A DNA stretch of 64,000 bases, from contig CAZUTK010000007.1 of assembly GCA_964623265.1 (NCBI GenBank), forward strand, positions 168 through 64,167, read 5' to 3'. The translations under genes were made by a program, and so were the position numbers. This document shows positions 1,125 through 46,615 of this stretch, in pieces. The first letter of the stretch is position 1. Every line of letters starts with the position of its first letter. The notes beneath the pieces are model-generated. The model worked only from the letters and a program-made list of their open reading frames with translations. It ran no database searches and was not told where the DNA came from. The stretch comes from an uncultured bacterium (GTDB taxonomy: Bacteria; Electryoneota; B3-LCP).

Positions 1125-1139
1125 TTTCTCCAATAAACA

Positions 1140-1177: not shown

Positions 1178-1190
1178 ACTTAGTTTACGT

Positions 1191-4913: not shown

Positions 4914-4925
4914 TGATGGCGCCGC

Positions 4926-6667: not shown

Positions 6668-7553
6668 GCCGATCGTTCGGCGAATTGCGCAAGGAAAACC
6701 CCTGCTGTTCGACGGAGCACTGGGTACGAGATTGATCGCGCGAGGCTTGTCCGCCGGAACACCGCCGGAAGACTGGGTTTTGCGTCATCCGGAACAGCTG
6801 CTGAACGTGCATCGCAGCTATGTCGAGGCGGGATCAGAGGCCATCGCCGCCTGCACGTTCGGCGCTAACCGCCTGCGTCTTCGCAAAACAGGACTGGAAG
6901 ATCGGATCGAAACGGTCAATTGTGAAGCGGTGCGTCTGGCTCGGGAAGCGGCGGGAGAGAACGTGTACGTTGCGGCGGATATCGGACCCACCGGCGAATT
7001 CTTTGAACCGATCGGGGCTTTGACGGAAACTGAAGCCGAAGCCATTTTCGAAGAACAGGCGAGGTTTCTCGCGCATACGGACGTGGATTTCCTTTTCTTG
7101 GAGACTTTTTATGATCTGCGGGAAGCGCGCATCGCGTTGAAGGCTTGCCGGGAAGCCGCGCCTCAGATCCCGATTGCGGCCAGCCTGACATTCAGCCGTA
7201 AGCCGCGCGGTTTTTTTACAGTGATGGGGGACCCCGCCGTCGCCTCCCTGCGCGCCCTGATGGAAGATGGGGCGTTCCTGATTGGTTCGAATTGCACTCA
7301 GGAAGCAAAGGGAATGCTGGAATTGGCGCGGGTGCTGATTCTCGGTGAGCTTCAGGCTCCTCTCGTTTTCCAGCCCAACGCCGGTGAACCGCAGGTGACA
7401 ACGAGCGGGATCATTTATCCGCAGGACGCCGAAACATTCAGCGCATTGGTTGCGGAAATGCTCGCGCTGGGTGTCCGCGCCGTCGGGGGATGCTGCGGAA
7501 CGGATGAAAGCCATATTCGCGCTATTAAGAAACAGATTGAAAATCAGTTTTAG
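6660..7553 (+). CDS. Homocysteine-S-methyltransferase-domain protein (Zn-dependent thiol methyltransferase, MetH Hcy-domain-like)
   Basis: LFDGALGT N-terminal motif. Zn-ligand cysteines IGSNCTQE and AVGGCCGT. GTG start overlaps the stop of the corrinoid gene (translational coupling). Confidence 0.75.
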   Translation: MREPIVRRIAQGKPLLFDGALGTRLIARGLSAGTPPEDWVLRHPEQLLNVHRSYVEAGSEAIAACTFGANRLRLRKTGLEDRIETVNCEAVRLAREAAGENVYVAADIGPTGEFFEPIGALTETEAEAIFEEQARFLAHTDVDFLFLETFYDLREARIALKACREAAPQIPIAASLTFSRKPRGFFTVMGDPAVASLRALMEDGAFLIGSNCTQEAKGMLELARVLILGELQAPLVFQPNAGEPQVTTSGIIYPQDAETFSALVAEMLALGVRAVGGCCGTDESHIRAIKKQIENQF

Positions 7554-7655
7554 CGAAGTTCTTATGATGGACTTCGATCCGCCTTGCGCTTAAAGCAGCG
7601 GAATGGACAAGCAGCGGCGGATCCGACAATCACGGATCAACGAGAGCGATAAAAA

Positions 7656-20073: not shown

Positions 20074-20553
20074 TTAAGATCGAATCCCCGTTTGCAGATC
20101 CTCTAAGATTCTCCGCAGCGGCGCCGGCATCCGCCGCAGCTTGCCGTGAAGATTCATGAAACAATGTACGGTGAAACCTTCCGCAAGAGAGTGAATTTCT
20201 GAACTTTTAAAGATGGTGTATTGGAAGCGGAGGCTGGCGCCGGTAAATTCTACCACCCGGGTGCACACCGTGAGCACATCGTCATATTCGGCGCCCTTAT
20301 AATATCTGCAGCCCGCTTCGATGACGGGCAGAAAGAGTCCCTCTTTTTCGAGCTCGGCGTACGGCTTCCAGACTCTCCGGATGAAATCAGCGCGTCCGGT
20401 TTCAAAATACTCGAAGTAATTCGCGTGATACACTACCCCCATTCTGTCCGTATCGGCGTAGCGAACGCGGACCGAAGTTTTTTCGAAATCTCGGAAATCG
20501 TTCGTGTTCATCCCGCCTGCCATATATTTCCAGCCTATTTCGCTATATCCCAT
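20074..20553 (-). CDS. Acyl-CoA thioesterase, 4HBT/YbgC family
   Basis: Hot-dog-fold signature [22 protein letters not shown]. True start probably an internal ATG (20523 or 20511), which avoids the overlap with accA. Confidence 0.7.
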
Positions 20554-21500
20554 TTCCCCGCCCGAAAGTAGCGTTGATGCCGCTGTCGGATGAGTTCCTC
20601 GATCGGGAGGCTCTGCAATTCCTGCAGAACTCGTGCGATCACCGTGCTGATGTTTTCCGCGGTTTTATCCGGATCGCGGTGTGCGCCTCCCAGCGGTTCC
20701 GGGATCACTTCATCAATCAGCTCCAGTTCCAGAAGATCCGGGGCAGTGACGCGCATCGCTTCCGCGGCTTTAGGAGCTTCCGCGGCGTTCCGGTAGAGGA
20801 TGGAGGCGCAGCCTTCCGGTGAGATGACGGAATAGATCGAATTTTCCAGCATCAGAATCCGGTCGGCGACGCCGATTGCCAGCGCCCCTCCCGACCCTCC
20901 CTCCCCGATGACAACGGCGAGGATGGGGACTTGCAAATTCGCCATCGTAAACAAGTTGGAGGCGATGGCTTCCGCTTGTCCGCGCTCTTCCGCGCCTAAC
21001 CCGGGGTAGGCGCCGGGCGTATCAATGAAACTGATGACAGGACGCTCAAACCGCGCCGCCAGTTCCATCAATCGTTTGGCTTTGCGGTATCCTTCCGGAT
21101 TGGGCATGCCGAAATTGCGATAGAGGTTCTCTTTGGTCCCCCGCCCCTTTTGGTGTCCCATAATGAATACGGGTTTTCCTTGAAAACCTGCGAAACCGCA
21201 GACAATCGCCGCGTCATCGCTGTAACGCCGATCTCCGTGCAATTCGACAAAATCGCTGAAGATGCGCCGAATATAGTCCAGAGTATAAGGGCGGTTCGGA
21301 TGTCGGGCAAGCTGGACGCGCTGCCAACGAGTCAAAGATGAATAGACTTCGGCGCGCAGCTTTTCCATCTTCTTTTCCAGGCGGGCGATTTCCTCTCCTA
21401 ACTCGATGTTGCTGCTGCCGGACAGCGCCTTCATCTCGGCGATCTTCTTCTCCAGATCCGCAATAGGTTTTTCAAAGTCCAGCGTCGAAATTTCCGCCAT
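20535..21500 (-). CDS. accA: Acetyl-CoA carboxylase carboxyltransferase alpha subunit
   Basis: Full-length AccA pattern ([49 protein letters not shown]). Confidence 0.9.
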
Positions 21501-21537: not shown

Positions 21538-23154
21538 TCACTTTCGGATCTTGAAACCGTGAGAAAACTCAAGACGAAACATCGGCAATTCCTCCGATCC
21601 GTTTTGGCTCTCGCCGGGGATGATTCTGAAATTCAGAGAGTGATGCGACAATTTCTGAATCAAGGAGATGATTTTGTCATACGAAGCCGCCGTGGAGGAA
21701 AAAAGCAATTCTTCCACCTGCTCCGTCTTAACAATACGCTCCAGATCCTCCAATCCACCCAGAATCGGCACGCCCTGAAGTATTTCTCCGATCCCTTCAT
21801 CGGTCAGGGCGACATAGCCGATCGGTTCTAATTCACTCATAGGGTCCCGCATCAACTGTCGGGCAATCTGACAGGCTCGTTCGTCCGCGCCCACGATCAA
21901 GGTTTTGCGTTTCATCCACTTCATCCCGCGCTTCCACGACCGCCTGCGCAGCCAATCCCGCAGAAGAATGCGCCAGCCGGGCATCGCGGCTGCCATACCG
22001 AAAGCAAACCAGAGCACGACGAAGCGGGAAAATGCCCACTGGATGAAAAAATACGTCAGCGCGGCGCACAGGGTTCCTGCGCTTGCAGCGGAGTAAAGCG
22101 CCTTTCTGCCGGAGTATTTCTTCGTCGAATACGCTTTGAAATAGAGTCCAGTGATCAGGTAAATCAGTGTGTATAGTCCGTTCACCAGCCAGACGGCGGA
22201 GCTGTAATCCGGAGCCGAAAAACGGATCCAGCGCCCCGTGAAGATGAACAGATTCAACAGCAAAAGATCGAGAAGCGGAGCCGCACCGGCTCTAAATAGG
22301 GAGAGGATAACCCGCTCGGCATCCCGCAACTGAAACCCGATCGTCACAATGCACCGCGCGAAGAAGGATGAGTTCCCGCTCAAATGTTTGTTCACGAAAA
22401 GCTTCATCGCGCGCTGGAAGTGATAATCGCGGTCTATTTCGGATCTCCTCGTACTTTCGCCTTTGAAGTGAACGATCTTCGTCGCCGGTGTGTAGAGAAT
22501 TCGAAAGCCGGTTTTGCGGATTCGATAGCAGAGATCCAGATCCTCCCCGTACATAAAATAGTCGCCGTCGAATCCCCCCAGTGCCTCCAGAATGGACTTG
22601 CGAACCATCATGCAGCAGCCGGAGAGCGCTCCGACGTCATTTTCCGATTCGGGATCCAAGTAGGTGAGCAAATACCGGCTGAAGGTTCGGCTGCGGGGGA
22701 ACAAGGCAGATAATCCAGTTAAATAGCTGAACGCCGCCCAGGGCGTGGGAAAACCGCGCATGCTTCGAGGCTCAAAGCGCCCATCAGGCAGGATGATTTT
22801 GGGCCCCACCGCGCCCACATCCGGCATCCGCATCAGGCGTTCCGCCAAAATTGAAAGCGTATCTTCCTGAACGAAGGAATCCGGATTCAAGATCAGAACG
22901 AAATCACCGCAGGCTTTTTCAAATGCCAGATTATTGGCGCGCGCAAAGCCGATGTTCTCGCGGTTGCGGATCAACAAAACGTCGGGATAGCGCTCTTCCA
23001 CCATTTCCGCAGAACGGTCGCTGGAGGCGTTGTCCACCACAATGATCTGGACATCGCCACCTTGGCTGGCGCGCTGCAGCGAACGGAGGCAGTGATCCAG
23101 AAAAGGTCGAACGTTGTAGCTGACGACAACTACGCTGATGCTGGGTTGTGCCAT
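21538..23154 (-). CDS. Family-2 glycosyltransferase fused to TM region and C-terminal CoA_binding_3-like (sugar-transferase N-terminal) domain
   Basis: N-terminal GT2 motifs (SVVVVSYN ... VVDNASSD ... MYGEDLD). ~5 TM helices. C-terminal KTLIVGADERACQIARQL ... IGYVALTDEG ... VPILGGLEDLERIV, like the Rossmann N-domain of WcaJ/EpsB-type transferases, but with no Bac_transf catalytic domain. Confidence 0.65.
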   Translation of the reverse strand: MAQPSISVVVVSYNVRPFLDHCLRSLQRASQGGDVQIIVVDNASSDRSAEMVEERYPDVLLIRNRENIGFARANNLAFEKACGDFVLILNPDSFVQEDTLSILAERLMRMPDVGAVGPKIILPDGRFEPRSMRGFPTPWAAFSYLTGLSALFPRSRTFSRYLLTYLDPESENDVGALSGCCMMVRKSILEALGGFDGDYFMYGEDLDLCYRIRKTGFRILYTPATKIVHFKGESTRRSEIDRDYHFQRAMKLFVNKHLSGNSSFFARCIVTIGFQLRDAERVILSLFRAGAAPLLDLLLLNLFIFTGRWIRFSAPDYSSAVWLVNGLYTLIYLITGLYFKAYSTKKYSGRKALYSAASAGTLCAALTYFFIQWAFSRFVVLWFAFGMAAAMPGWRILLRDWLRRRSWKRGMKWMKRKTLIVGADERACQIARQLMRDPMSELEPIGYVALTDEGIGEILQGVPILGGLEDLERIVKTEQVEELLFSSTAASYDKIISLIQKLSHHSLNFRIIPGESQNGSEELPMFRLEFSHGFKIRK

Positions 23155-23158
23155 GCAC

Positions 23159-23899
23159 TTAGAGGCGGCCGAACAGGCTCTGCAGCTTCAATTTCCAGAC
23201 CATCCAGATGGCTTCGCGGACAATCTTGCGCGACATTTTCGATTTCCCTTCGACGCGGTCGGTGAAAATGATGGGTATTTCTTTGATGCGGAATCCTTTC
23301 TTCCAGGCGCGGAAACTCATCTCGATCTGAAACGAGTAACCGCCGGAGTGAATGCGATCCAGGTCGATTGATTCTAAGACATTGCGCCGGAAGCACTTGA
23401 ATCCACCTGTGGGATCCTTCACCGGCATACCGGTAATGAAACGGGTATAGAAGGAAGCGCCGTACGAAAGCAACAAACGCTTTAAAGGCCAATTGATCAC
23501 ATTCACGCCGGTGATATAGCGCGATCCTAGCACTAAATCGGCGTCTTGGATCGCTTCCAAGAACTTCGGCAAGACGCTGGGATCGTGTGAGAAATCGGAA
23601 TCCATCTCCAAAATGTACTCGTAATCTCTCTCCAGAGCATATTTGAAACCGGCGATATAGGCGCGCCCCAAACCTGCTTTTTCGGGTCTTTCCAGCAGGA
23701 AAATCCGGTTGGGATGCTGCTTCTGCAGTTCCTTGACCAGGTTCGCCGTGCCGTCCGGTGAATTGTCATCCACCACTAGAATATCGAATTGCGGCCCCTG
23801 TTTCAGGACTTCCGGGAGAATGCAGGGGATGTTCTCCGCTTCGTTGTAAGTGGGCATCACCACCAGGGCTCGTGAACGCACTTCCGCGCCGGTGTTCAT
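23159..23899 (-). CDS. Polyprenyl-phosphate sugar synthase (Dpm1/GtrB/ArnC-like GT2)
   Basis: VVMPTYNEAENI, VVDDNSPDGT, EMDSDFSHDP, LVLGSRY: classic dolichol/undecaprenyl-phosphate mannose/glucose synthase pattern. Confidence 0.75.
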   Translation of the reverse strand: MNTGAEVRSRALVVMPTYNEAENIPCILPEVLKQGPQFDILVVDDNSPDGTANLVKELQKQHPNRIFLLERPEKAGLGRAYIAGFKYALERDYEYILEMDSDFSHDPSVLPKFLEAIQDADLVLGSRYITGVNVINWPLKRLLLSYGASFYTRFITGMPVKDPTGGFKCFRRNVLESIDLDRIHSGGYSFQIEMSFRAWKKGFRIKEIPIIFTDRVEGKSKMSRKIVREAIWMVWKLKLQSLFGRL

Positions 23900-24840
23900 T
23901 GAGTTTCACCTCCGTATTCTCTTTTTCCGGCGTCCCTTTGCCGATGATATTCTTGCAAGCCTGCATGGATCCCGCGCGGCGAAAAGGCGAGTTCCCGTGC
24001 GATTTTATCCAGAGCGAAAGTGGAATCGGCTGGGCGCGGCGATTTCTGCACCAATTCCGATGTCTTGATCGGCTGGATGCGGTCCGGATTTTCGCCGAAT
24101 TCAGCCGCGATCCGCCGGGCGAATTCGTATCTCGTCACCGACTCGCTCCCGCTGATATGGAAGATCCCCTCCTTTTGCAGTTGCATCACCCGGGCGATCC
24201 CCGACGCCAGATCATCCGCCAGAGTAGGGTTGCCTCGCTGATCTTCAACGATTTTTATGACCCCTACGGACTGCAATCGTTGTAAGACGAAGTCCACGAA
24301 ATTCGGGCGGATGTTATCACCTACGCCATAGAGCACCTGCGTCCTGATGATGGTGTGGGGCACATCCGCGCCGCGCAGGATGTTTTCACTCGCCAGCTTC
24401 GATTTGCCGTAAAATCCTAAAGGCTTCGTGGGGTCTTCTTCCCGATAGGGTGGATGAGTTCCATCGAATACATAATCGCTGGAGATGTGGATCAGGTGGG
24501 CTTTAACCTTCTTTGCCGCCCGAATCAGATGATCCACCGCCAGGACGTTGATCCGCCAGCAGCGGTCTTTTTGCACTTCACAGCCGTCCACATCCGTCAT
24601 CGCTGCGGTGTTGATGATGTAATTCGGCCGAATTTTTAAGGCTAGCTCGAGAACCTCGTCGCGTCGGGTGATATCCTGGGTGAAATACTCGCAGGGTGCG
24701 TCCCGCAAATGCATCCGCGTTTGTAAATCCACTCCGAAGATGTGATTGTGTTTCGCTAAAAGCAGCGTCAGTTTCTGACCCAGCAGTCCATTACACCCTG
24801 TGATGAAAATCCGCAAACCCGACGGGATGGAGGAATTCAA
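23896..24840 (-). CDS. RmlD-like NAD(P)-dependent sugar-nucleotide reductase/epimerase (dTDP-4-dehydrorhamnose reductase family)
   Basis: FITGCNGLLGQ Rossmann motif. HISSDYVFDGT and YGKSK catalytic motifs. Confidence 0.6.
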   Translation of the reverse strand: MNSSIPSGLRIFITGCNGLLGQKLTLLLAKHNHIFGVDLQTRMHLRDAPCEYFTQDITRRDEVLELALKIRPNYIINTAAMTDVDGCEVQKDRCWRINVLAVDHLIRAAKKVKAHLIHISSDYVFDGTHPPYREEDPTKPLGFYGKSKLASENILRGADVPHTIIRTQVLYGVGDNIRPNFVDFVLQRLQSVGVIKIVEDQRGNPTLADDLASGIARVMQLQKEGIFHISGSESVTRYEFARRIAAEFGENPDRIQPIKTSELVQKSPRPADSTFALDKIARELAFSPRGIHAGLQEYHRQRDAGKREYGGETQ

Positions 24841-24865
24841 TGGAGTTTGCTCCTGGATTGCGATC

Positions 24866-25333
24866 CTATAGTCTGCTTCCTTGCTTTCGAAATTGCATCA
24901 GTTGAGCGGCAACAGCCGGTGATTCTAGCGCGAGGATGCGCGCCGCCAGGCAAGCGGCGTTAACGGCGCCGGCTTTGCCGATGGAAACCACGCCCACCGG
25001 TACGCCGGCGGGCATCTGCACGCTGGATAGAAGCGCGTCCAAACCGCCCAGCGTCGAAGAAGCCAAGGGCACGGCGATCACTGGCAGCAGGCTGTGAGCC
25101 GCGCAGGCGCCCGCCAGGTGAGCCGCCATACCCGCCGCGGCGATGATGAGCTTGAAGCCTTGGTCCGCAGCGCTGCGGGTGATTTCCGCCGTCGCATCCG
25201 GGTGGCGATGCGCTGAACTCACGCGCCATTCCGCTTCGATGCCGAAGAAATCGAGATAGGGCTTCATCGCTTCCAACGTTTCTCGATCGGAATCGCTGCC
25301 CATTAAGATGAGAATCTGCGGTTTCTTTGCCAT
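24866..25333 (-). CDS. purE: N5-carboxyaminoimidazole ribonucleotide mutase
   Basis: ILMGSDSD, AAGMAAHL, VPVGVVSIGKAG motifs. Start taken at MAKKPQ (ORF track 25378). Confidence 0.85.
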   Translation of the reverse strand: MAKKPQILILMGSDSDRETLEAMKPYLDFFGIEAEWRVSSAHRHPDATAEITRSAADQGFKLIIAAAGMAAHLAGACAAHSLLPVIAVPLASSTLGGLDALLSSVQMPAGVPVGVVSIGKAGAVNAACLAARILALESPAVAAQLMQFRKQGSRL

Positions 25334-25346
25334 AGTCTTCCTGAAT

Positions 25347-26405
25347 TTAGTATCGGCTGCCTGGAGCCATAATTTCAAAGGTTTCCAGCATTACTTCCAA
25401 TTGTTTGATGTATGGCTCTTTCTCGCCGCCCGGATTGAAAACCTCACCATCCAGCAAATAGGCCCGCTGCTGATCTTCATCAAAAAAGGCGTAACCTACA
25501 AATGCTCCTCCACCCAGTGAACTTAAAGTCTCCCAAACACCGTGAAATTTCAGAGCTGGATAGTATCCGACCACCGTGCTGGTGATGCGGGTAAAATCCG
25601 GGTTCACCCGGCTGGGGTCTTCGAACTGCATCCCCAGCATGTTCCAGGTGTCGATCACCCAGGCTGAATCAATGGGGTTTTCAGCCAACGGCGGGGATCG
25701 CCAGAGTGTGACGAAACGGGTCGGCAAGACGCGTTTCAGGCGCAGCCAACCGTTTTCGACCTCGTCGCGTACCAGCGCGAAATCCGCCGGAATACGAAGC
25801 GTGAACTGATACCTGCGACTCAAGTCGCGTTCTAGGTCTTTGCGCTCCAGTTTGCTGTACAACTCATCCAATACGATCTCGGTGCGTTTTTCGTCGAGGA
25901 TCTTGTAGAGATTCTCGCCTTCTTCCTCGAGCTTCCGTCGCAATTCGTCCGCATTCGGAGTGACGAGGACCAGCATCAACTGATGTCTCGCCCATTCGTT
26001 TTCTTTCTGGAAAACGTAATAGATCCCATTCTGCACTCCTTCTTTGACTTCCGGCGTGAGCATCGTCTCAATCAGTCCGGATACACCCCCGGAATTTTGC
26101 AGGGTTCCTACAATTAAGAGGAAGCGTTGCGTCTGGACTTGCTCCAGCTTGCTGTAGTCGGCGAATATCGGTTTCAACCGGTATTCCGGCTGAGGCGTTT
26201 CGATGATGGGACAGAATGTAGAGATGAGAGCGTCGCCGATTTGCGTCTCCAATTCGGTGTCAATCAGGATCGCCAATTCATACGGCGTGCCGGTGGCGCG
26301 CGGCTTGATGTTGCAGCCGTTCAGAACCAGCGCTGGCAGCAGAATGATCCCTATGCATAAACGATGAAAATTTCGCCGGTTTTTTAAGATCACGCGAAGT
26401 TTCAT
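25347..26405 (-). CDS. Hypothetical lipoprotein (possibly DUF4837-like)
   Basis: Lipoprotein signal MKLRV ... LLPALVLNGC. No catalytic motifs. Confidence 0.4.
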   Translation of the reverse strand: MKLRVILKNRRNFHRLCIGIILLPALVLNGCNIKPRATGTPYELAILIDTELETQIGDALISTFCPIIETPQPEYRLKPIFADYSKLEQVQTQRFLLIVGTLQNSGGVSGLIETMLTPEVKEGVQNGIYYVFQKENEWARHQLMLVLVTPNADELRRKLEEEGENLYKILDEKRTEIVLDELYSKLERKDLERDLSRRYQFTLRIPADFALVRDEVENGWLRLKRVLPTRFVTLWRSPPLAENPIDSAWVIDTWNMLGMQFEDPSRVNPDFTRITSTVVGYYPALKFHGVWETLSSLGGGAFVGYAFFDEDQQRAYLLDGEVFNPGGEKEPYIKQLEVMLETFEIMAPGSRY

Positions 26406-26412
26406 TCTTTGA

Positions 26413-27369
26413 TTATTCTTTCGCAAAAAGGTGGAGATTCGAAGACCCTTCACCGGATTTCAACCCGCGGATGAAGCTGACCAATCCGATCCCTAATCCT
26501 CGGACGATCTTCGGCAAGACTTGAACGCCTGAAGACCAGCTCAATTCGGAGATCAAGGCGTTGTACCAGGGATCCAACGGCAGGGACCGCGTGGCGAACC
26601 AATTGATATTATACACACTCAACAGTATCTCAAGATCCCGACGTCTGAAATGATAGAGGTGTCTGGGCGCATCCCAGGCAACCCACCGCGAACGGTAGAA
26701 TTTCGCATCAAAGGAATAGGGGTTGGGCAGAGCGATGGCCAAGATACCGCCCGCTTGGATTCGTTTCGCTACGGCGTCCAGTGTTCCTTTCAAATCGGGT
26801 AGATGTTCCAGCGCGTGCCAGAAGGTGATCAAATCGAATTTTAGATCGGGATACGTCACGGTTGCCGGGTCGCCGGTCAACACTTCGCAACCGGCGGCAC
26901 GAGCCTGTTCCGCGGCGTCGGCATCGCTTTCCACGCCCAGAACCTGCCAGCCGTGACGCCTCATATATTGCAAAAATTCGCCAGTGCCGCAGCCTACATC
27001 CAATAGCGTTCCAGGCTCTTTCTTTTTCCAGACCAGTGAAGCTTTAAGATGGATCGAAAGAGGGCGGATTCGGCGATAAATGCATCCGAAACAACCACCG
27101 CCCCGGCGCCTGTGAGGGTCGTATCTTTCCGAACGATAGTATCTCTTAAGATGCTCTGAAATCGGTCTCGGATTCAAATATAGAAAACCGCAGGATGAAC
27201 AGGCAACGATGCGAAACGCTGCTCCCTGCGGTTGGTTCTTTGTCCGAGCTGGTTCCGAATGCAGGCGATCCTGGACGGTGTAAACTGAGCGGAAGGGACG
27301 CGTTCCGCAAATTGGACAGGGGATCTCCTCGAATTGGGTTTGGAGATCCTCTGATCCTCTATTCGCCAT
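26413..27369 (-). CDS. Class I SAM-dependent methyltransferase with N-terminal zinc ribbon
   Basis: CPICG ... CSSCG ribbon. SAM motif I LLDVGCGTGEF. Acidic motif II region. Confidence 0.65.
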   Translation of the reverse strand: MANRGSEDLQTQFEEIPCPICGTRPFRSVYTVQDRLHSEPARTKNQPQGAAFRIVACSSCGFLYLNPRPISEHLKRYYRSERYDPHRRRGGGCFGCIYRRIRPLSIHLKASLVWKKKEPGTLLDVGCGTGEFLQYMRRHGWQVLGVESDADAAEQARAAGCEVLTGDPATVTYPDLKFDLITFWHALEHLPDLKGTLDAVAKRIQAGGILAIALPNPYSFDAKFYRSRWVAWDAPRHLYHFRRRDLEILLSVYNINWFATRSLPLDPWYNALISELSWSSGVQVLPKIVRGLGIGLVSFIRGLKSGEGSSNLHLFAKE

Positions 27370-28153
27370 ATTTATTCCAGGGCGCGGCGGGATCGAAATA
27401 GACCCGCAGCCCGGCGTTCAAATATGCGCCGCTGAAATCCGCCTCAAAGGTGTCGAAGGTATTCTGCCAGTAAGCAATTTCCCCCACCTTGTAGTTTCCG
27501 GTCTGACCGACGACTTCGCGGAAAAATTTATAGCGGGTGACCGGTGCCCAGCGGAATCCTCCGCCCAATTTCAGTGAAACCGCGCTGGACAGGAAGAATT
27601 CAGCGCCCAGTTCCCCCGTGAAACCGAAGCTGCGTCCATTGGCGCCGTAGAAGGATTCGCCGTATACTGCCTGAGACTGAGTGCTCACTTCGCGGTCCAA
27701 TGAACTCAGGTAAAACGCCGGACCGGCGCCCAGCTCCAGATTGAACCGCGGTGTGATGTGCCAGTAATAATTCGCGGTCAGAAAGATCTCCACGGCGTTG
27801 GTGAACACCCGCGCCGTCTGGGTTTCATTCGCCGCATTGACGGCGGTTGCGGTGGCGCTGTCCGTGCCCAGAACGTTCAAACCGATGTGCCAGGCGAAAT
27901 ACGGCTGCGTCTTGTACAGCAGAGTGATGCCGCCCATAAACGATCCTTCTGACTCTGTGTACTCCTTTTGACTATACCCGGACGGACCGGTGAAACCCTT
28001 AACGAAAGTATTGGGATCCGTCATGTTCAGGTACATTCCGTAGCCGCCGCGGATCTCGATTCCGCGTTGATGATCAATTTTCGGACCGCTTTGAGCCGTC
28101 AGAACGGTTACGCTGAGAACGACGAAGCAAGCCAACCACTGAGATGCGCGCAT
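27359..28153 (-). CDS. Outer-membrane beta-barrel protein
   Basis: Signal peptide MRASQWLACFVVLSVTVLTAQS. Alternating amphipathic strands with aromatic girdle. C-terminal ...NKYGE. Confidence 0.5.
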   Translation of the reverse strand: MRASQWLACFVVLSVTVLTAQSGPKIDHQRGIEIRGGYGMYLNMTDPNTFVKGFTGPSGYSQKEYTESEGSFMGGITLLYKTQPYFAWHIGLNVLGTDSATATAVNAANETQTARVFTNAVEIFLTANYYWHITPRFNLELGAGPAFYLSSLDREVSTQSQAVYGESFYGANGRSFGFTGELGAEFFLSSAVSLKLGGGFRWAPVTRYKFFREVVGQTGNYKVGEIAYWQNTFDTFEADFSGAYLNAGLRVYFDPAAPWNKYGE

Positions 28154-28183
28154 TCTTCCTCCTGTATCCCTGAGTCGAACTCA

Positions 28184-29236
28184 TTATATTTCGTTTTTCT
28201 GCAAAATTTGCGTAGTTTTATCTTTTCCCAGCAGAAAATGCTGAATAACGATGCTGCCGCGGTACATTTTCCGTATGATCTGCCGATCGCTGACTCGGCG
28301 GATTCTCTGAACCTGCCTGCGCTTGGAAAAACTGCGGAACAGCAGCCAGGGCAGCATTAATTGTACAGTCAGCGCCGCGGGACCGCGGCGAAAATCTCTG
28401 CGTAAGAAGGAGACGACGATTGTCCCCCATTCAAAGATTATTCTAAGCGGCAAAATCCAGACCAACTGCGCCAGTGAATAGTTCTTCACCAAACAGACGA
28501 TGCTGTTGCGGTGGTTCAAAAACATTTTGCGCCGTTCTGTGTTCGGCAGGGTCCCGCCGGAATAGTGATAGACGACCGCAGCCGGAACGCGAATCCCATG
28601 ATAGCCTGCCAGGTGCAGCCGCCAGGCGAGGTCTATCTCTTCCATATGAGCGAAAAAGTCTTCATCCAGCAACCCGACTTCGCTTAGCGCCGAACGGCGG
28701 AAAATCGCGGCCGTCCCGCATGCCCAGAAGATTTGTGAAGGAGTATCGTATTGCCCATGATCTTCTTCCAGCGACATAAACAGGCGTCCGAACGCGAAGG
28801 GATAGCCCAGAAAGTCCATCAGACCGCCGCAGGCTCCGGAATAATCAAACTGCCGGCGATCCTTGATGTTCAGCAGTTTGGGCTGAGCGAATGCCGCTTC
28901 GGGATTCCTGTCCAGCGACGCCACCAGTTCGCCCAATGTCTGCGGTTCCAGTACGGTATCATCGTTCAACAACAAGACAAATTCACTGCCGGATTGCTGA
29001 ATTCCCGCGTTGCACCCGCCGGCGTACCCTCGATTGCTGCTCAGAGCCAGGAGTCTGACTTGTGGGAATTCCCGCTGCAGCATTTCGCGGCTGCCATCGG
29101 TGGAGGCATTGTCCACGATGATGACGTCGAAAGAGCGATAAGTGGAATGGAATACGCTGTTCAGACAGTCTCTCAAAATCCCTGCCCCCTGCAGATGGGG
29201 AATCACAATGCTCAAGCGGGGCGGCGGGGATGTCAT
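28184..29236 (-). CDS. Family-2 glycosyltransferase
   Basis: SIVIPHLQG ... IIVDNASTDGS ... LLLNDDT ... HMEEIDLAWR GT2 pattern. Start overlaps the stop of the upstream gene. Confidence 0.75.
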   Translation of the reverse strand: MTSPPPRLSIVIPHLQGAGILRDCLNSVFHSTYRSFDVIIVDNASTDGSREMLQREFPQVRLLALSSNRGYAGGCNAGIQQSGSEFVLLLNDDTVLEPQTLGELVASLDRNPEAAFAQPKLLNIKDRRQFDYSGACGGLMDFLGYPFAFGRLFMSLEEDHGQYDTPSQIFWACGTAAIFRRSALSEVGLLDEDFFAHMEEIDLAWRLHLAGYHGIRVPAAVVYHYSGGTLPNTERRKMFLNHRNSIVCLVKNYSLAQLVWILPLRIIFEWGTIVVSFLRRDFRRGPAALTVQLMLPWLLFRSFSKRRQVQRIRRVSDRQIIRKMYRGSIVIQHFLLGKDKTTQILQKNEI

Positions 29237-32163
29237 CAGGGCGAGCCCTCAGCCATCATCCGCTGGTATTGCTGCAACCGACGCGTCGCCTGCACGTCGT
29301 TGGGATGCGCCGTGGTCCAATCCCGCAGCAATTGAACCGCCGCGGGATAGTCCCGCTTTCGTTCATAAACCAGCAGCAAGCCGCCGACGGCGGAACCGTC
29401 GTTGGGGTTCTTCAGCAGCATATCCCGGAAGAGCTGTTCCGCCTGATCTAATTGACCCATCTGGATATAGGCGCTGCCGAGTCTCATCTCGAGATCGTTG
29501 CTAAGCGGCTTCGAGCGCACTTCATTGAGCAATTTTTCCGCTGCGTCAATGCGCCCCATCTGTCGGTATGCCGTCGCCACTTCCAACTTCATCTCCGGAG
29601 TGGGATTCTCCTTCAGCGCCAGATCGAATTGCCGTTCCGCCGCTGCGGTGTCTCCCGCCCATTGCAGATACACAGCCCCATAGCGGAAGCGCTGTTCCGG
29701 TGTGATGTTGGGCTTGGAAGTGAGGCGGTTCAAGCGCTTGATCAGTTCTTCCGGCCTGCCTAAATCGGCGTAGAGTCTTCCCAGATGCATGACGATTTCA
29801 TCCTGACTGATGGCGATGACATCTTCCGGCATAAAATGCTCCATGCAATCGAGGATGAACAGCACTTTATCGCGGCTCGAGAAATCGGCGAATCGGTTCA
29901 CCGATTCCTGAATCGAGCTGTTGCGGTTGTACGGGATGGTTCCGGGCTGGTTCTGTTCGAGGTAGTAGGTGGCGAGCTGCAGAAACGCACTGCGATAGTT
30001 CTGCAAAAGACGAAAGATGTTGTCGTCGTAGTGAACCTTCGGATTATCTAGGTTGCGATAGTAATCCCGATAGTTGACCAGCAGATTCTCGAGGAGACGA
30101 TCCGGGTCAATTTCTTTTCCGGGTTCGGGATTCAAGCGGAACGCCAGCCCTTCCATCGTGAGATGATCTCGCAGGTTGAGCATATTCAAGGTGGAAACCG
30201 TGACGGCGAAGTAGATCGGGCGCTTCCATTGGGCGGCGCGGATGATGTCAATGATCATGATGTCCTGCACCCGCAGAAAGTTCGGTTCACCGGTATCGCC
30301 CGGTCCGGTGGACAGATGCAGCGTGGCGGGGACATCCCAGACCATCTCGCCTCCATCTGGCGTCGCCAAGCGGATAGTCGTGGGCTTGTTGGGGTCGTTT
30401 TTGGGCCAATAGCGCATCCTCAGAGCCGTCATATCGTGCTGGTCCAGGTACCGGTTGATGTAATCGTCGCTGAAGGTCATCGGAACTTTGGGTTCTGTGT
30501 GCTTCAATTGCAGAATATACCAGCCGGTGTTCAGCAGCGAAAGATTGATGACCCGGACATCCTTGCGGATGTTCTCCACTTCCTGCAGATACCAGAGCGG
30601 AAAGGTATCGTTGTCGCCGTTGGTGAAGATGACCGCATTGGGAGCACAGGTTTCCAGCATATTCCGAGAGTAATCCCAAGCGACGTAATTCCCCTGCCGG
30701 CTTTGACTTCGGTAGCTTTTCGCCAGCATATTCAGAGGAAGAAGGATCAGCAGCAGAGCCAGACCGCCGGCGATTAGGATTTGCGGATTCTTCTTCTTCC
30801 TGCCCAGCTCGCGCAGTTGATCCAGCAAGCCCTGCGCGCCGATGCCGATCCAGACTGCGAAGGCGTAAAAGCTCCCCACGTATGAGTAATCCCGTTCCCG
30901 CGGTTGCGGATTATCCTGATTGACATAGATGATGATGGCGTAACCCGTCATCAAGAACAGGGTGAGGATGACTAACGCTCTGCGCTTATCCTTGATGACG
31001 TGATGCGCCAGACCCCAGAATCCGAGAATCAGGGGCAGCGCGTAGAATTCGGAAAACTTCACCCCTGCGCCCTGAAAATCGCCCTCCATTCCGACGAATT
31101 GCCATAAGAAATAGCGGTTGTACATATAGTCAATCTGGTATCTCCAGAAGAAATCCGCTTCGCTGCTGTAGTTGGGATCGTTGTTCCAGCGGCGGGGAAA
31201 AATGCCGACATCCCCGTACTGCTCCCGGTTGATATAAGCGAGGAAGCGCTCGATGGTATCCGGATTGTTTTCGTCAATGTTGGGATTTAAGGATGATCGG
31301 ATGTAAATATATCCGTACGTCGAGTAACCGAGGATGATCAGGAATGTGGAGGCCAGCACCAGAAAGGGGACGCGCTGCCGGGCTTTCAATGCGTAATAAC
31401 AACCCAGCAGGACGCCGATGAAAATCAGAACCGGCACCGCCCAGCTGATCTTGAAAGTTGCCGGCAGGTATTTGATGATCCCGGGGTAGATGACGACGAA
31501 TCCCGCCAGAGTGATCGCCAGCATAGCGAAGAATGAAGACCAAGTGAACTTCCATCTTCGAAAGTAAATGACCAGAGCGATCGCAGGAATCGCCAGGATA
31601 TTCAGCAGATGCACGCCGATCGCCAAGCCGAAAATGTATGCGATGATCAGAAGCAGATGGTCGCTGGCAGGGTCGTCCGCTTCATCCGCCCAGCGAACGA
31701 TCAGATAGAACACGATGGCGGACAGAAACATGCTGGCGGCATAGACTTCCGCTTCCACGGCGTTGAACCAGAAACTGTGCGTGAAAGCGAACGTCAGCGC
31801 GCCGACTGCGGCGCCTCCGTAGACGATCCATCCGTCCAGAAGAGTCTCTTCCTTGCCCCGGTATAATCGCACCAGCCGCACGATGGTCAAATAGAGCAGC
31901 CAAACGGATAACGCGGATACGATGGTGCTGATCAAATTCACTCGCCAGCCCACATCGCCGAACGGGATCAAGCTGAAAAGATGCCCCATCAGCAGATAGA
32001 GTGGGGAACCCGGCGGATGCGGCACTCCCATTATAACCGAGCAAGCGATGAATTCGCCGCAATCCCAAAAAGAGAGCGTCGGTGAGATCGTGCTCAGGTA
32101 GATGATCCAGGAGAAAATAAGAAGAAAAGCCGCGATGACGCGATGCAGAGTCTTTAAATCCAT
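29236..32163 (-). CDS. DUF2723/TMEM260-like GT-C-fold membrane protein with C-terminal TPR repeats (putative polyprenyl-P-sugar-dependent protein glycosyltransferase)
   Basis: ~11 TM helices in the N-terminal ~500 aa with SFWDCGEF motif. Large soluble C-terminus of TPR-like repeats (AYIQMGQLDQAEQLF ...). ATG at 32163; the ORF-track GTG is at 32220. Confidence 0.6.
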   Translation of the reverse strand: MDLKTLHRVIAAFLLIFSWIIYLSTISPTLSFWDCGEFIACSVIMGVPHPPGSPLYLLMGHLFSLIPFGDVGWRVNLISTIVSALSVWLLYLTIVRLVRLYRGKEETLLDGWIVYGGAAVGALTFAFTHSFWFNAVEAEVYAASMFLSAIVFYLIVRWADEADDPASDHLLLIIAYIFGLAIGVHLLNILAIPAIALVIYFRRWKFTWSSFFAMLAITLAGFVVIYPGIIKYLPATFKISWAVPVLIFIGVLLGCYYALKARQRVPFLVLASTFLIILGYSTYGYIYIRSSLNPNIDENNPDTIERFLAYINREQYGDVGIFPRRWNNDPNYSSEADFFWRYQIDYMYNRYFLWQFVGMEGDFQGAGVKFSEFYALPLILGFWGLAHHVIKDKRRALVILTLFLMTGYAIIIYVNQDNPQPRERDYSYVGSFYAFAVWIGIGAQGLLDQLRELGRKKKNPQILIAGGLALLLILLPLNMLAKSYRSQSRQGNYVAWDYSRNMLETCAPNAVIFTNGDNDTFPLWYLQEVENIRKDVRVINLSLLNTGWYILQLKHTEPKVPMTFSDDYINRYLDQHDMTALRMRYWPKNDPNKPTTIRLATPDGGEMVWDVPATLHLSTGPGDTGEPNFLRVQDIMIIDIIRAAQWKRPIYFAVTVSTLNMLNLRDHLTMEGLAFRLNPEPGKEIDPDRLLENLLVNYRDYYRNLDNPKVHYDDNIFRLLQNYRSAFLQLATYYLEQNQPGTIPYNRNSSIQESVNRFADFSSRDKVLFILDCMEHFMPEDVIAISQDEIVMHLGRLYADLGRPEELIKRLNRLTSKPNITPEQRFRYGAVYLQWAGDTAAAERQFDLALKENPTPEMKLEVATAYRQMGRIDAAEKLLNEVRSKPLSNDLEMRLGSAYIQMGQLDQAEQLFRDMLLKNPNDGSAVGGLLLVYERKRDYPAAVQLLRDWTTAHPNDVQATRRLQQYQRMMAEGSP

Positions 32164-32355
32164 TGGGGTTCCAGCCGTATTAGGTTCTTCCGTCGGTTCA
32201 ATGGGCGGATAACATTGCACGAATCAGCAGGGCATTAAAACAAAAATGTACAAAATATATCATTTGAAGTCAAGCGAAATTATCCGCATGCGTTTTCATG
32301 ATGCTTCGATCCTTGCGTGATTGTAACCTGTCATAATTCTATTCGATGATCGAAC

Positions 32356-46583: not shown

Positions 46584-46615
46584 GATAGAGTTAAAGTCAT
46601 CTATTCTGTCCCATT

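What the first reader, a model, noticed from the sequence alone, without database searches (positions are those of the whole stretch)
23159..32163. Candidate protein/glycan mannosylation locus: Dpm1-like polyprenyl-phosphate sugar synthase plus a ~980-aa DUF2723/TMEM260-like GT-C membrane protein with TPR tail
Seen in sequence: one co-directional gene string encodes the following.
- A Dpm1/GtrB-type polyprenyl-P-sugar synthase (23159-23899).
- An RmlD-like sugar-nucleotide reductase and a GT2.
- A large multi-TM protein (29236-32163) with the DUF2723 signature (SFWDCGEF) followed by ~450 aa of TPR repeats.
- An OMP, a lipoprotein and a SAM methyltransferase interleaved between them.
Established knowledge: the human DUF2723 protein TMEM260 is a Dol-P-Man-dependent protein O-mannosyltransferase with the same TM-plus-TPR architecture, and Dpm1-like enzymes make the lipid-linked donor.
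Inference: this locus may specify a periplasmic polyprenyl-P-sugar-dependent O-glycosylation of envelope proteins or a glycan. Bacterial DUF2723 proteins are essentially uncharacterised.
Basis: partly seen in the sequence, partly recalled or inferred. Interest (0 to 1): 0.6.

Follow-up and report, generated by a model that had tools for sequence, protein, structure and literature searches.

The report
Bacterial TMEM260-like glycosyltransferase with mannose-donor cassette
An uncultured bacterium carries a membrane enzyme related to a human protein-mannosylating enzyme, next to the gene that likely makes its lipid-linked mannose donor. It is a sound but untested candidate for sugar-tagging of cell-envelope proteins.

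Summary
The described genes are all present, all on the minus strand.

**The large protein.** The 975-aa protein (29236-32163) is a clear member of the TMEM260-like/DUF2723 GT-C family.
- Pfam PF11028 matches at E=8e-63. A family profile matches human TMEM260 (PDB 9RQL) at E=2e-29.
- The AlphaFold model has pLDDT 89, and its best full-length structural matches are all GT-C enzymes.
- TMEM260's D52, H67 and D441 map to invariant D34, H49 and D517, on the periplasmic side.

- TPR repeats cover only about 210 aa. Residues ~490-740 form an alpha/beta "palm".
- purE also sits in the string.
- A GT2 fusion gene (21538-23154) belongs to the block.

**The donor synthase.** The 246-aa GT2 is closest to Pyrococcus Dol-P-Man synthase (E=1e-36).

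**Linkage.**
- The window-type block recurs in Zixibacteria, LCP-89, KSB1 and Calditrichota.
- A different Dpm1-like gene directly abuts DUF2723 in Kapaibacteria.
- Overall, 9 of 80 species-level loci show a Dpm1-like gene nearby.
- In other phyla, 70%-identical Dpm1 orthologs directly follow other GT-C genes (YfhO/PMT_2).

**Verdict.** Most likely this is polyprenyl-phosphate-mannose-dependent periplasmic glycosylation, probably of proteins. Donor and acceptor are unproven. It is a new member of a known kind, of moderate interest.

The parts
29236..32163 (-). 975-aa TMEM260-like (DUF2723) GT-C glycosyltransferase. It has an N-in multi-pass TM domain and a periplasmic first loop carrying D34 and H49. 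A periplasmic alpha/beta 'palm' spans ~490-740 and carries invariant N515-G516-D517. About six TPR repeats span ~763-972.
   Evidence: PF11028 E=8e-63. TMEM260 9rql E=8e-16 and E=1.8e-29 with the profile. AF2 pLDDT 89.1. GT-C Foldseek hits. Invariant residues. Hydropathy and positive-inside topology.
28184..29236 (-). 350-aa GT2 glycosyltransferase. Its start overlaps the DUF2723 stop (TGATG). It is the most frequently conserved neighbour of DUF2723.
   Evidence: PF00535 E=7e-27. Generic GT2 by PDB search. An ortholog lies within 5 kb of DUF2723 in 14 of 80 loci, including Marinimicrobia. Junction sequence.
27359..28153 (-). 264-aa beta-barrel outer-membrane protein with a signal peptide. Role in the system unknown.
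   Evidence: PF13568 OMP_b-brl_2 E=2e-7. Same position in L001, and probably in L087, where a 271-aa protein has no Pfam hit.
26413..27369 (-). 318-aa SAM-dependent methyltransferase with an N-terminal Cys-rich segment. Possibly methylates a sugar.
   Evidence: PF13489 E=3e-25. Same position in LCP-89 and Zixibacteria relatives. Non-orthologous methyltransferases flank DUF2723 in Ignavibacteria and Chitinophagaceae.
25347..26453 (-). DUF4837 predicted lipoprotein (LNGC lipobox). The true start is probably the internal ATG near 26405. Function unknown.
   Evidence: PF16125 E=7e-28. Travels with the block in KSB1, Calditrichota and LCP-89. Absent from the Zixibacteria version.
24866..25378 (-). 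purE (N5-CAIR mutase). Probably a passenger housekeeping gene within the string.
   Evidence: TIGR01162 164 bits, above its cutoff of 149.6. Replaced by PfkB in Caldithrix. Absent in the Zixibacteria version.
23896..24840 (-). RmlD-type dTDP-4-dehydrorhamnose reductase. It overlaps the Dpm1-like gene by 4 nt (ATGA).
   Evidence: PF04321 E=5e-73. TIGR01214 239.8 bits, above its cutoff of 224. The RmlD-Dpm1 pair is conserved. Junction sequence.
23159..23899 (-). 246-aa Dpm1/DPMS-type polyprenyl-phosphate hexose (probably mannose) synthase. It is a soluble catalytic domain without TM helices and carries a D100-S-D102 motif.
   Evidence: PDB best hit is P. furiosus DPMS 5mlz, E=1.3e-36. Relatives at 65-83% identity are named polyprenol monophosphomannose synthase by NCBI.
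21538..23154 (-). 538-aa fusion of a GT2 domain, TM helices and a CoA_binding_3 domain. This resembles the N-terminal half of WbaP-type phosphoglycosyltransferases, but the Bac_transf catalytic domain is missing. It is part of the conserved Dpm1-GT2-accA block.
   Evidence: Orthologs in L014 and L015 retain a partial Bac_transf domain. The block is conserved.
32164..32355 (-). 192-nt AT-rich intergenic region, the largest gap in the string. It contains a sigma-70-like TTGACT-17-TACATT site and is the likely start of the transcription unit.
   Evidence: The promoter scan is not above the chance count (12 found against 10.1 expected).

Best explanation
The 975-aa protein is a bacterial member of the TMEM260-like GT-C glycosyltransferase family, with its active site on the periplasmic face of the inner membrane. 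The proposed mechanism has three steps.

1. **Donor synthesis.** The soluble Dpm1/DPMS-like GT2 encoded 5 kb downstream charges polyprenyl (undecaprenyl-type) phosphate with a hexose from a nucleotide sugar on the cytoplasmic face. The hexose is most likely mannose.
2. **Flipping.** The lipid-linked sugar is flipped across the membrane. No flippase gene is present in the string. In relatives, an LPG_synthase_TM protein sits beside DUF2723.
3. **Transfer.** The GT-C enzyme transfers the single sugar to a hydroxyl of an acceptor. The acceptor is held in the groove formed by the alpha/beta 'palm' and the TPR 'fingers'.

By analogy with TMEM260, the acceptor is most likely Ser/Thr of extended (unfolded, exported) envelope proteins. 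The neighbouring GT2s, RmlD and methyltransferase may supply or elaborate further sugars.

**Shown:** family membership, GT-C fold, topology, conservation of three functional residues, and conserved gene linkage in several lineages.

**Inferred:** sugar identity, lipid carrier, protein acceptor, and any role for the OMP and lipoprotein.
For: **Family and fold**
- PF11028 E=8e-63. TMEM260 9rql E=8e-16 and 1.8e-29 with the profile, in two stretches covering the GT-C core and the start of the luminal domain.
- AF2 model pLDDT 89.1, pTM 0.84. The best full-length Foldseek hits are all GT-C enzymes: PglB at 2.5e-6, then AglB, STT3, AftA, ALG12 and ALG9.

**Functional residues** (alignment, read against bioRxiv 10.64898/2026.03.17.711096, and PMC10214176)
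- TMEM260 D52 maps to D34. D52A is inactive, and D52 contacts mannose.
- TMEM260 H67 maps to H49. H67 contacts mannose.
- TMEM260 D441 maps to D517. D441 lies next to the acceptor Thr.
- H49 and D517 are invariant in 73 homologs. D34 is invariant in 12 and at least 90% conserved in 73.

**Topology**
- N-terminus in, first loop out, K/R-rich loops in, C-terminal 495 aa out.

**Donor synthase**
- Best solved relative is Dol-P-Man synthase, E=1.3e-36, with the DxD motif conserved. NCBI names relatives polyprenol monophosphomannose synthase.

**Linkage**
- The block DUF2723-GT2-...-RmlD-Dpm1-GT2-accA recurs at 45-70% protein identity in KSB1, Calditrichota, LCP-89 and Zixibacteria. The Zixibacteria version lacks purE and DUF4837, so the glycosylation genes are contiguous there.
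- An independent arrangement puts a Dpm1/GtrB/ArnC-class GT2 directly downstream of DUF2723 in Kapaibacteria and a Bacteroidota genome.
- In other phyla, Dpm1 orthologs at ~70% identity directly follow YfhO- or PMT_2-type GT-C genes. These are preceded by GT2, GT4 and LPG_synthase_TM genes.
- Stop/start overlaps occur within the string.
Against: - No bacterial DUF2723 protein has been studied experimentally in the literature held here.
- A Dpm1-like gene lies within 5 kb in only 9 of 80 species-level loci. Most Bacteroidota, Ignavibacteria, Chlorobi and Rhodothermales loci lack it.
- purE sits in the string, and the co-directional run is over 25 kb long, so operon membership is unproven. No clear terminators or promoters were found.
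- TMEM260 residues that contact its peptide are not conserved. R439 maps to N515, P443 to D519 and E466 to S542.
- The donor-loop and TMH10 residues R264, Y267 and R355 could not be mapped.
- The best structural matches are oligosaccharyltransferases that use diphosphate-linked donors.
- Neighbouring GT2, GT4 and GT9 genes and remnants of an initiating phosphoglycosyltransferase fit a lipid-linked oligosaccharide or glycan pathway as well.
- There is no flippase gene in the string. The window's LPG_synthase_TM gene (4917-5996) is 23 kb away and only 25% identical, over 114 aligned residues, to the DUF2723-adjacent ones.
Confidence: 0.5

Rival explanations
1. The enzymology is the same (polyprenyl-P-sugar donor, periplasmic GT-C), but the acceptor is a glycan or lipid. 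Candidates are LPS core or lipid A, an O-antigen-like or capsular polymer, or peptidoglycan. This follows the model of Gtr-type three-component systems, ArnC/ArnT and CsbB/YfhO.
For: - This is the usual role of bacterial synthase + GT-C pairs (established knowledge; PMC11127046 listed).
- DUF2723 neighbours in other lineages are glycan enzymes: GT9 heptosyltransferase in Ignavibacteria, GT4 and GT2, and a CE4 polysaccharide deacetylase in Bacteroidia and Flavobacteriales.
- LptD lies close by in LCP-89.
- The orthologous Dpm1 gene pairs with YfhO- or PMT_2-type GT-Cs elsewhere.
Against: - The nearest characterised relative, TMEM260, modifies proteins.
- The palm Asp that sits beside the acceptor Thr (D441, mapping to D517) and the palm + TPR groove architecture are conserved.
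- TPR domains are typical of protein-directed GT-Cs such as TMTC1-4 and TMEM260, and are not a feature of ArnT. This rests on established knowledge.
Confidence: 0.2
2. The protein is an en-bloc O-oligosaccharyltransferase or ligase. It would transfer an undecaprenyl-diphosphate-linked oligosaccharide, built by the adjacent GT2s, RmlD and methyltransferase, onto proteins or onto a core sugar. The Dpm1-like enzyme would serve another step.
For: - The top structural matches are PglB, AglB and STT3 oligosaccharyltransferases.
- The block contains two or more GT2s, a methyltransferase and a rhamnose-pathway reductase.
- Orthologs of the 538-aa fusion keep part of a Bac_transf phosphoglycosyltransferase domain.
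- A WecA-type Glycos_transf_4 gene follows Dpm1-GT2 in another phylum.
Against: - TM-scores to the oligosaccharyltransferases are low (0.27-0.34 by query length), so they indicate only the general GT-C fold.
- There is no Pfam STT3 or Wzy_C hit.
- The TMEM260 residues that hold a monosaccharide-phosphate donor (D52, H67) are conserved.
- The window's fusion protein has lost the phosphoglycosyltransferase domain.
- No Wzx flippase was found among the genes scanned, though not every gene in the window was scanned.
Confidence: 0.12
3. There is no dedicated system. The genes are neighbours only through inherited synteny in one group of related phyla. The Dpm1-like enzyme would supply other GT-C enzymes encoded elsewhere, and DUF2723 would use a different donor.
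For: - Housekeeping genes lie inside and around the string: purE, accA, polA and a D-amino-acid transaminase.
- In most lineages DUF2723 sits among housekeeping genes: lepA/lepB/HemN-like, recG/DUF1844 or ybeY.
- 71 of 80 loci show no Dpm1-like gene within 5 kb.
Against: - Two independent gene arrangements bring a Dpm1-class GT2 next to DUF2723.
- The Zixibacteria version drops purE and DUF4837 but keeps the glycosylation genes together.
- The same Dpm1 ortholog group abuts other GT-C genes across phyla.
Confidence: 0.13

Closest known systems
Human TMEM260 (GT-C protein O-mannosyltransferase; PDB 9RQL/9RQM/9RQN)
   Same: - Same Pfam family (PF11028), and significant sequence homology over the GT-C core and the start of the luminal domain.
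- D52, H67 and D441 are conserved as D34, H49 and D517.
- Same layout: TM domain, then Rossmann-like palm, then TPR fingers, facing the non-cytoplasmic side.
   Different: - The bacterial protein is 975 aa against 707 aa, with more membrane helices and a long conserved periplasmic loop (residues 284-334).
- It has a larger palm and about six TPR repeats, against a five-helix TPR in TMEM260.
- The central 245 aa do not align by sequence.
- Peptide-contact residues differ, so the TMEM260 IPT-domain sequon should not be assumed.
- The carrier lipid would be a bacterial polyprenol rather than dolichol.
- Activity is untested.
Actinobacterial Ppm1 + Pmt protein O-mannosylation (GT39 PMT family)
   Same: Same proposed logic: a polyprenol-phosphate-mannose synthase related to Dpm1 feeds a periplasm-facing GT-C that mannosylates Ser/Thr of exported proteins. 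This rests on established knowledge. The soluble Dpm1-like catalytic domain without TM helices resembles the Ppm1 catalytic domain.
   Different: The GT-C belongs to a different family: there is no PMT or PMT_2 Pfam hit and no MIR domain. It has a palm + TPR acceptor module instead. It occurs in FCB-group diderms, not Actinobacteria.
Three-component periplasmic glycosylation systems (GtrA/GtrB/GtrC, ArnC/ArnT, CsbB/YfhO)
   Same: A Dpm1/GtrB-class GT2 plus a GT-C transferase. Orthologs of this very Dpm1 gene pair with YfhO- or PMT_2-type GT-Cs and LPG_synthase_TM proteins in other phyla.
   Different: - No GtrA-family flippase was seen in the string.
- The synthase lacks the C-terminal TM helices of GtrB and ArnC.
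- Acceptors of the known systems are glycans or lipid A.
- DUF2723 shows no detectable sequence relation to the YfhO-type partner (hhalign probability 0.5%).
TMTC1-4 (eukaryotic GT-C + TPR cadherin O-mannosyltransferases)
   Same: A GT-C membrane domain followed by luminal TPR repeats, using a lipid-phosphate-mannose donor (PMC10214176).
   Different: No sequence-family relation was detected here. TMTCs lack the Rossmann-like palm described for TMEM260.
PglB/AglB/STT3 oligosaccharyltransferases
   Same: These are the best full-length structural matches. They share the GT-C fold with a soluble domain after the TM region.
   Different: TM-scores are low. There is no STT3 Pfam hit. These enzymes use diphosphate-linked oligosaccharide donors and an Asn acceptor.

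Membership tests
TMEM260-like GT-C (Pfam PF11028 / DUF2723) | Match to the family model above its curated threshold | tested here: met
   211.8 bits against a cutoff of 24.2, E=8e-63, ORF residues 53-224. Homologs also carry PF28495 'TMEM260_2' in precomputed annotations.
TMEM260-like GT-C (Pfam PF11028 / DUF2723) | Catalytic Asp in the first non-cytoplasmic loop (TMEM260 D52; D52A is inactive) | tested here: met
   D52 aligns with D34 of SFWDCGEF (ORF numbering minus 19). D34 is invariant in 12 homologs and at least 90% conserved in 73. Function of D52 from PMC10214176.
TMEM260-like GT-C (Pfam PF11028 / DUF2723) | Sugar-recognition-motif His (H67) and palm Asp beside the acceptor (D441) | tested here: met
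   H67 maps to H49 in the invariant HPPG motif. R439-G440-D441 maps to N515-G516-D517 in the invariant TNGDNDTFP motif. Roles from bioRxiv 10.64898/2026.03.17.711096.
TMEM260-like GT-C (Pfam PF11028 / DUF2723) | Donor-loading-loop R264/Y267 and TMH10 R355 | tested here: inconclusive
   A profile of residues 225-470 finds no TMEM260 match. Invariant R313-E-Q-Y316 and R422/R424 are candidates by pattern only. A structural superposition on 9RQL could not be run.
TMEM260-like GT-C (Pfam PF11028 / DUF2723) | GT-C fold with a luminal/periplasmic Rossmann-like domain and TPR domain | tested here: met
   Model pLDDT 89.1. GT-C Foldseek hits. Alpha/beta region ~490-740 and TPR ~763-972. C-terminal domain predicted periplasmic.
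TMEM260-like GT-C (Pfam PF11028 / DUF2723) | Transfers mannose from a polyisoprenyl-phosphate-mannose donor to Ser/Thr of proteins | not testable with these tools
   Needs biochemistry or glycoproteomics.
Dpm1/DPMS-type polyprenyl-phosphate mannose synthase | GT2 catalytic domain, closest to solved Dol-P-Man synthase, with the DxD motif | tested here: met
   PF00535 E=2e-32. 5mlz E=1.3e-36 over residues 11-237. D100-S-D102 aligns with the DPMS DAD motif.
Dpm1/DPMS-type polyprenyl-phosphate mannose synthase | Match to a curated equivalog model or proven GDP-mannose specificity | tested here: not met
   No NCBIfam model reaches its cutoff; the best is AglJ at 59 bits against 325. The mannose assignment rests on the DPMS similarity and on NCBI names of relatives.
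Dpm1/DPMS-type polyprenyl-phosphate mannose synthase | Membrane anchoring by its own C-terminal TM helices (as in P. furiosus DPMS, GtrB and ArnC) | tested here: not met
   The protein is 246 aa and ends after the catalytic domain. It resembles the anchor-less class (human DPM1, mycobacterial Ppm1 catalytic domain), so a partner or peripheral binding is implied.
Gtr-type three-component glycosylation system | Synthase + dedicated flippase + GT-C encoded together | tested here: inconclusive
   The synthase and the GT-C are present. No GtrA-type gene is in the string. An LPG_synthase_TM protein lies 23 kb away at 4917-5996. Such genes sit directly beside DUF2723 in KSB1 and Calditrichota, but the window copy is only 25% identical over 114 aligned residues.
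O-oligosaccharyltransferases (PglL/Wzy_C type; PglB/STT3 type) | Wzy_C or STT3 family domain | tested here: not met
   No such Pfam or NCBIfam hit at E<=0.01. Only fold-level similarity to PglB, AglB and STT3.
dTDP-4-dehydrorhamnose reductase (RmlD) | Equivalog model above its curated cutoff | tested here: met
   TIGR01214 239.8 bits against 224.05. rmlA, rmlB and rmlC were not found among the window genes scanned.

The most novel reading that the evidence does not exclude
[quoted passage not shown] The core of that system's glycan is Ser/Thr-linked mannose with a rhamnose branch. The enzyme would place the core mannose from polyprenyl-phosphate-mannose.

The Dpm1 + RmlD + GT2 + methyltransferase block seen here would be the missing 'core glycan' machinery. 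YfhO-type GT-Cs, recently proposed in silico as the Bacteroidales transferase, would be functional counterparts occupying the same cassette position in other lineages.

**Not excluded**
- Both a 2025 review and a July 2026 preprint state that the transferase is still unidentified.
- The family is conserved across FCB phyla.

**Against**
- Presence of DUF2723 in the model species (B. fragilis, P. gingivalis, T. forsythia, F. johnsoniae) could not be checked.
- A search with a Bacteroidales homolog returned only environmental genomes.
Probability: 0.1. Interest if true: 0.85.

Novelty: new member of a known kind. Interest (0 to 1): 0.5.

Why it matters
**State of knowledge.** Bacterial relatives of TMEM260 are very numerous.
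- At least 596 stretches in the one-genome-per-species collection matched exact motif peptides.
- None has a tested function in the literature held here.

**What this locus offers.** It gives a concrete, testable system in FCB-group bacteria:
- a specific donor-synthase partner;
- catalytic residues to mutate (D34, H49, D517);
- a conserved gene cassette.

**A wider pattern.** The same Dpm1 ortholog pairs with different GT-C families in different phyla (DUF2723, YfhO, PMT_2). This suggests an ancient, modular periplasmic glycosylation cassette.

**If the acceptor is protein.** It would be a second bacterial route of protein O-mannosylation besides the actinobacterial Pmt system. It would also bear on the unresolved identity of the Bacteroidota O-glycosylation transferase.

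Tried and rejected
- **Unmapped TMEM260 residues.** A profile of residues 225-470 was searched against the PDB to map TMEM260 R264, Y267 and R355. It gave no TMEM260 match.
- **Model-species check.** A Bacteroidales homolog (L076) was used as the query to see whether model Bacteroidota carry the family. Only environmental genomes came back, so the result is uninformative for B. fragilis, P. gingivalis and similar species.
- **Transcription signals.** The promoter and terminator scan of 19-37 kb was not above chance for promoters, and all terminator-like sites lie inside genes. It gives no operon boundaries.
- **Literature.** Searches for a characterised bacterial DUF2723 or an identified Bacteroidota O-mannosyltransferase found none.
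- **GT2 at 28184-29236 as a GtrB-like lipid-sugar synthase.** Rejected. Its PDB and NCBIfam matches are generic glycan-extending GT2s.
- **Homology between DUF2723 and the YfhO-type partner.** Rejected (hhalign probability 0.5%).
- **The window's LPG_synthase_TM gene as an ortholog of the DUF2723-adjacent ones.** Not supported (25% identity over 114 aa).

Full report
**Observation**

Pfam and NCBIfam give this order, reading downstream from 32163:

| Coordinates | Size | Assignment |
|---|---|---|
| 29236-32163 | 975 aa | PF11028 'TMEM260-like', E=8e-63 |
| 28184-29236 | 350 aa | GT2 |
| 27359-28153 | 264 aa | beta-barrel OMP |
| 26413-27369 | 318 aa | SAM methyltransferase |
| 25347-26453 | 368 aa | DUF4837, lipobox LNGC |
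| 24866-25378 | 170 aa | purE |
| 23896-24840 | 314 aa | RmlD (TIGR01214 above cutoff) |
| 23159-23899 | 246 aa | GT2, Dpm1-like |
| 21538-23154 | 538 aa | GT2 + TM + CoA_binding_3 fusion |
| 20535-21500 | 321 aa | accA |

- Homologs of the large protein are 974-975 aa long, so the ATG at 32163 is the likely start rather than the upstream GTG.
- Gene junctions are tight. DUF2723/GT2 overlap as TGATG and RmlD/Dpm1 as ATGA.
- A 192-nt AT-rich gap precedes the DUF2723 gene.
- The co-directional run is much longer than the locus (19.7-46 kb), so co-directionality alone carries no weight. The promoter/terminator scan gave no boundaries.

- TPR repeats occupy only ~763-972, not ~450 aa.
- purE was omitted.
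- The GT2 fusion just outside the coordinates belongs to the conserved block.

**The large protein**

- phmmer against the PDB finds human TMEM260 (9rql) at E=8e-16, in two stretches.
- A profile of 73 homologs raises this to 1.8e-29. It covers TMEM260 residues 30-223 (GT-C core) and 363-484 (last TM helices and the start of the luminal Rossmann-like domain).
- AlphaFold2 with that alignment gives pLDDT 89.1 and pTM 0.84.
- The best full-length Foldseek PDB matches are all GT-C enzymes: PglB at 2.5e-6, then AglB, STT3, AftA, ALG12 and ALG9. TM-scores are low, so this is a fold-level statement only.

The TMEM260 papers define its functional residues (PMC10214176; bioRxiv 10.64898/2026.03.17.711096):
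- D52 is catalytic. D52A is dead, and D52 contacts mannose.
- H67 contacts mannose.
- D441 sits beside the acceptor Thr.
- R264, Y267 and R355 contact the donor.

In the alignment:
- D52 maps to D34 (SFWDCGEF).
- H67 maps to H49 (HPPG).
- R439-G440-D441 maps to N515-G516-D517 (TNGDNDTFP).
- H49 and D517 are invariant in 73 homologs. D34 is invariant in 12 and at least 90% conserved in 73.
- R264, Y267 and R355 could not be mapped, because the central 245 aa do not align. Invariant R313-x-x-Y316 and R422/R424 are candidates by pattern only.

Hydropathy and the positive-inside rule place the N-terminus inside and the first loop outside. They also place the C-terminal 495 aa outside. The active site therefore faces the periplasm.

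**The small GT2**

- Its closest solved relative is P. furiosus Dol-P-Man synthase, at E=1.3e-36 and with a conserved DxD motif. ArnC follows at 2e-8.
- Relatives at 65-83% identity occur in several phyla and are named polyprenol monophosphomannose synthase by NCBI.
- No curated NCBIfam model reaches its cutoff.
- The protein lacks TM helices.
- Mannose specificity and the mode of membrane attachment are therefore inferences.

**Linkage**

A scan of one genome per species found at least 596 matching stretches. The 80 best loci span the FCB superphylum. ORF-level comparison shows the following.

- The window-type block (DUF2723-GT2-...-DUF4837-...-RmlD-Dpm1-GT2 fusion-accA-thioesterase) occurs in five KSB1/Calditrichota-like loci.
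- The 350-aa GT2 lies within 5 kb of DUF2723 in 14 of 80 loci, including Marinimicrobia.
- A different ~254-aa GT2 sits directly downstream of DUF2723 in three Kapaibacteria genomes and one Bacteroidota genome. Its best PDB matches are DPMS, ArnC and GtrB.
- Elsewhere the neighbours vary:
  - lepA-lepB-HemN-like upstream, with a methyltransferase and GT4 downstream;
  - recG-DUF1844;
  - an unknown gene plus ybeY;
  - GT9;
  - LPG_synthase_TM;
  - a CE4 deacetylase.
- Counts: a Dpm1-class gene within 5 kb in 9 of 80 loci, and any cytoplasmic GT within 1.5 kb on the same strand in 30 of 80.

Look-ups of specific relatives add three cases:
- Caldithrix: GT2-DUF2723-LPG_synthase_TM-DUF4837-x-PfkB-RmlD-Dpm1-accA.
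- LCP-89: same order as the window, plus a second DUF2723 paralog.
- Zixibacteria: DUF2723-GT2-OMP-like-MT-RmlD-Dpm1-GT2 fusion-accA, without purE or DUF4837.

The reciprocal look-ups are informative. Dpm1 orthologs at ~70% identity in other phyla lie directly downstream of large YfhO- or PMT_2-type GT-C genes. Those are preceded by GT2-GT4-LPG_synthase_TM(-MT) and followed by GT2(-WecA-like)-accA. The YfhO-type partner has no detectable sequence relation to DUF2723. The synthase thus appears to be the constant element of an old cassette in which the GT-C partner varies.

**Interpretation**

The best-supported mechanism is a periplasmic, polyprenyl-phosphate-hexose-dependent glycosylation, probably with mannose. 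It would be carried out by a TMEM260-family GT-C.

- A protein Ser/Thr acceptor is favoured. The reasons are the conserved palm Asp and the palm + TPR groove, together with what is known about TMEM260.
- It is not shown. TMEM260's peptide-contact residues are not conserved.
- Bacterial synthase + GT-C pairs usually decorate glycans or lipid A.
- The surrounding GT2, GT4 and GT9 genes, and the phosphoglycosyltransferase remnants, are also compatible with a glycan acceptor or an en-bloc transferase.
- Simple inherited synteny cannot be fully excluded.

Estimated weights:

| Reading | Weight |
|---|---|
| Protein O-glycosylation coupled to Dpm1 | 0.5 |
| Glycan or lipid acceptor | 0.2 |
| En-bloc transferase | 0.12 |
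| No functional coupling | 0.13 |

**Comparison and novelty**

- The protein passes the testable membership criteria for the TMEM260-like family.
- It differs from the human enzyme in size, helix count, palm and TPR extent, and acceptor-contact residues.
- Only one paper in the library mentions DUF2723, and it says only that TMEM260 has 'distant homologs in bacteria'.
- Pfam and some NCBI records already name the family as protein O-mannosyl-transferase by homology.
- This is therefore a new, uncharacterised member of a known kind, placed in a conserved cassette that has not been described in the papers held here.

**Most novel reading not excluded**

- A 2025 review states that the Bacteroidota O-glycan core is Man-Rha-GlcA. 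It adds that the core machinery, transferase and ligase are undiscovered, and suggests looking for homologs of eukaryotic O-mannosylation.
- A July 2026 preprint says the transferase is still unidentified. It proposes YfhO in silico and notes its absence from P. gingivalis.
- DUF2723 is conserved across FCB lineages and here sits with a mannose-donor synthase and a rhamnose-pathway gene.
- YfhO-type GT-Cs occupy the equivalent cassette position elsewhere.
- This makes DUF2723 a testable alternative or complementary candidate.
- Its presence in the model species could not be checked, so the probability is set at about 0.1.

Noticed in passing
window 21538-23154 (-); L014:10414-12492, L015:10291-12402: The 538-aa protein fuses a GT2 domain to the TM + CoA_binding_3 half of a WbaP-type phosphoglycosyltransferase, but it lacks the Bac_transf catalytic domain. 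Orthologs in two KSB1-like genomes are ~700 aa and keep the C-terminal half of Bac_transf. This suggests stepwise loss of the initiating transferase activity.
   Followed up: partly
window 4917-5996 (+): An LPG_synthase_TM (MprF-flippase-like) membrane protein. Members of this family sit directly beside DUF2723 in KSB1 and Calditrichota, and beside the GT-C/Dpm1 pair in other phyla. This makes them candidate lipid-linked-sugar flippases. The window copy is remote and only 25% identical, over 114 aligned residues, to the adjacent type.
   Followed up: partly
L081, L084, L088, L089 (other phyla): A conserved cassette: GT2-GT4-LPG_synthase_TM-(methyltransferase)-[YfhO/PMT_2-type GT-C]-Dpm1-GT2-(WecA-like)-accA. 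The same Dpm1 ortholog and the same accA neighbour recur as in the window, but with a different GT-C family.
   Followed up: partly
L002, L005, L014 (tandem); L086:6438-8468: DUF2723 genes are duplicated in tandem in some KSB1-like genomes. The LCP-89 genome carries a second, shorter (676-aa) TMEM260_N + TPR paralog 1.5 kb upstream. This hints at several acceptor specificities.
   Followed up: no
P0241-P0360 (Bacteroidales/Bacteroidota homologs of L076): Bacteroidota DUF2723 proteins (~1016 aa) carry a different C-terminal Pfam domain (PF28497) instead of recognisable TPR repeats. One NCBI record already names them 'protein O-mannosyl-transferase family'.
   Followed up: no
L059, L070, L071, L073, L076: In Bacteroidia and Flavobacteriales loci, a CE4 polysaccharide deacetylase gene lies directly downstream of DUF2723.
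   Followed up: no
L009, L012, L016, L019, L021, L024, L029, L032, L053: In Ignavibacteria, Chitinophagaceae and related loci, DUF2723 sits in a conserved run: lepA - two signal peptidase I genes - HemN-like radical SAM - DUF2723 - methyltransferase - GT4. Proximity to signal peptidase genes is suggestive for an enzyme that might act on exported proteins, but it was not analysed further.
   Followed up: no
L082:12582-17049: In the Caldithrix relative, the cassette is followed by porV and a Por_Secre_tail (type IX secretion) cargo protein.
   Followed up: no
window 6630-9128 (+) and 46595-48529 (+): A homocysteine S-methyltransferase lies next to an MttB-superfamily methyltransferase. A SelB selenocysteine elongation factor lies further along the window.
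   Followed up: no
window 1-2000: G+C drops to 0.44, against ~0.54 for the rest of the window. The 394-aa ORF at 3-1184 (-) has no Pfam match.
   Followed up: no
window 36104-37714 (-): A 536-aa secreted-looking protein combines Vgb-lyase-like beta-propeller repeats with a transglutaminase-core domain.
   Followed up: no
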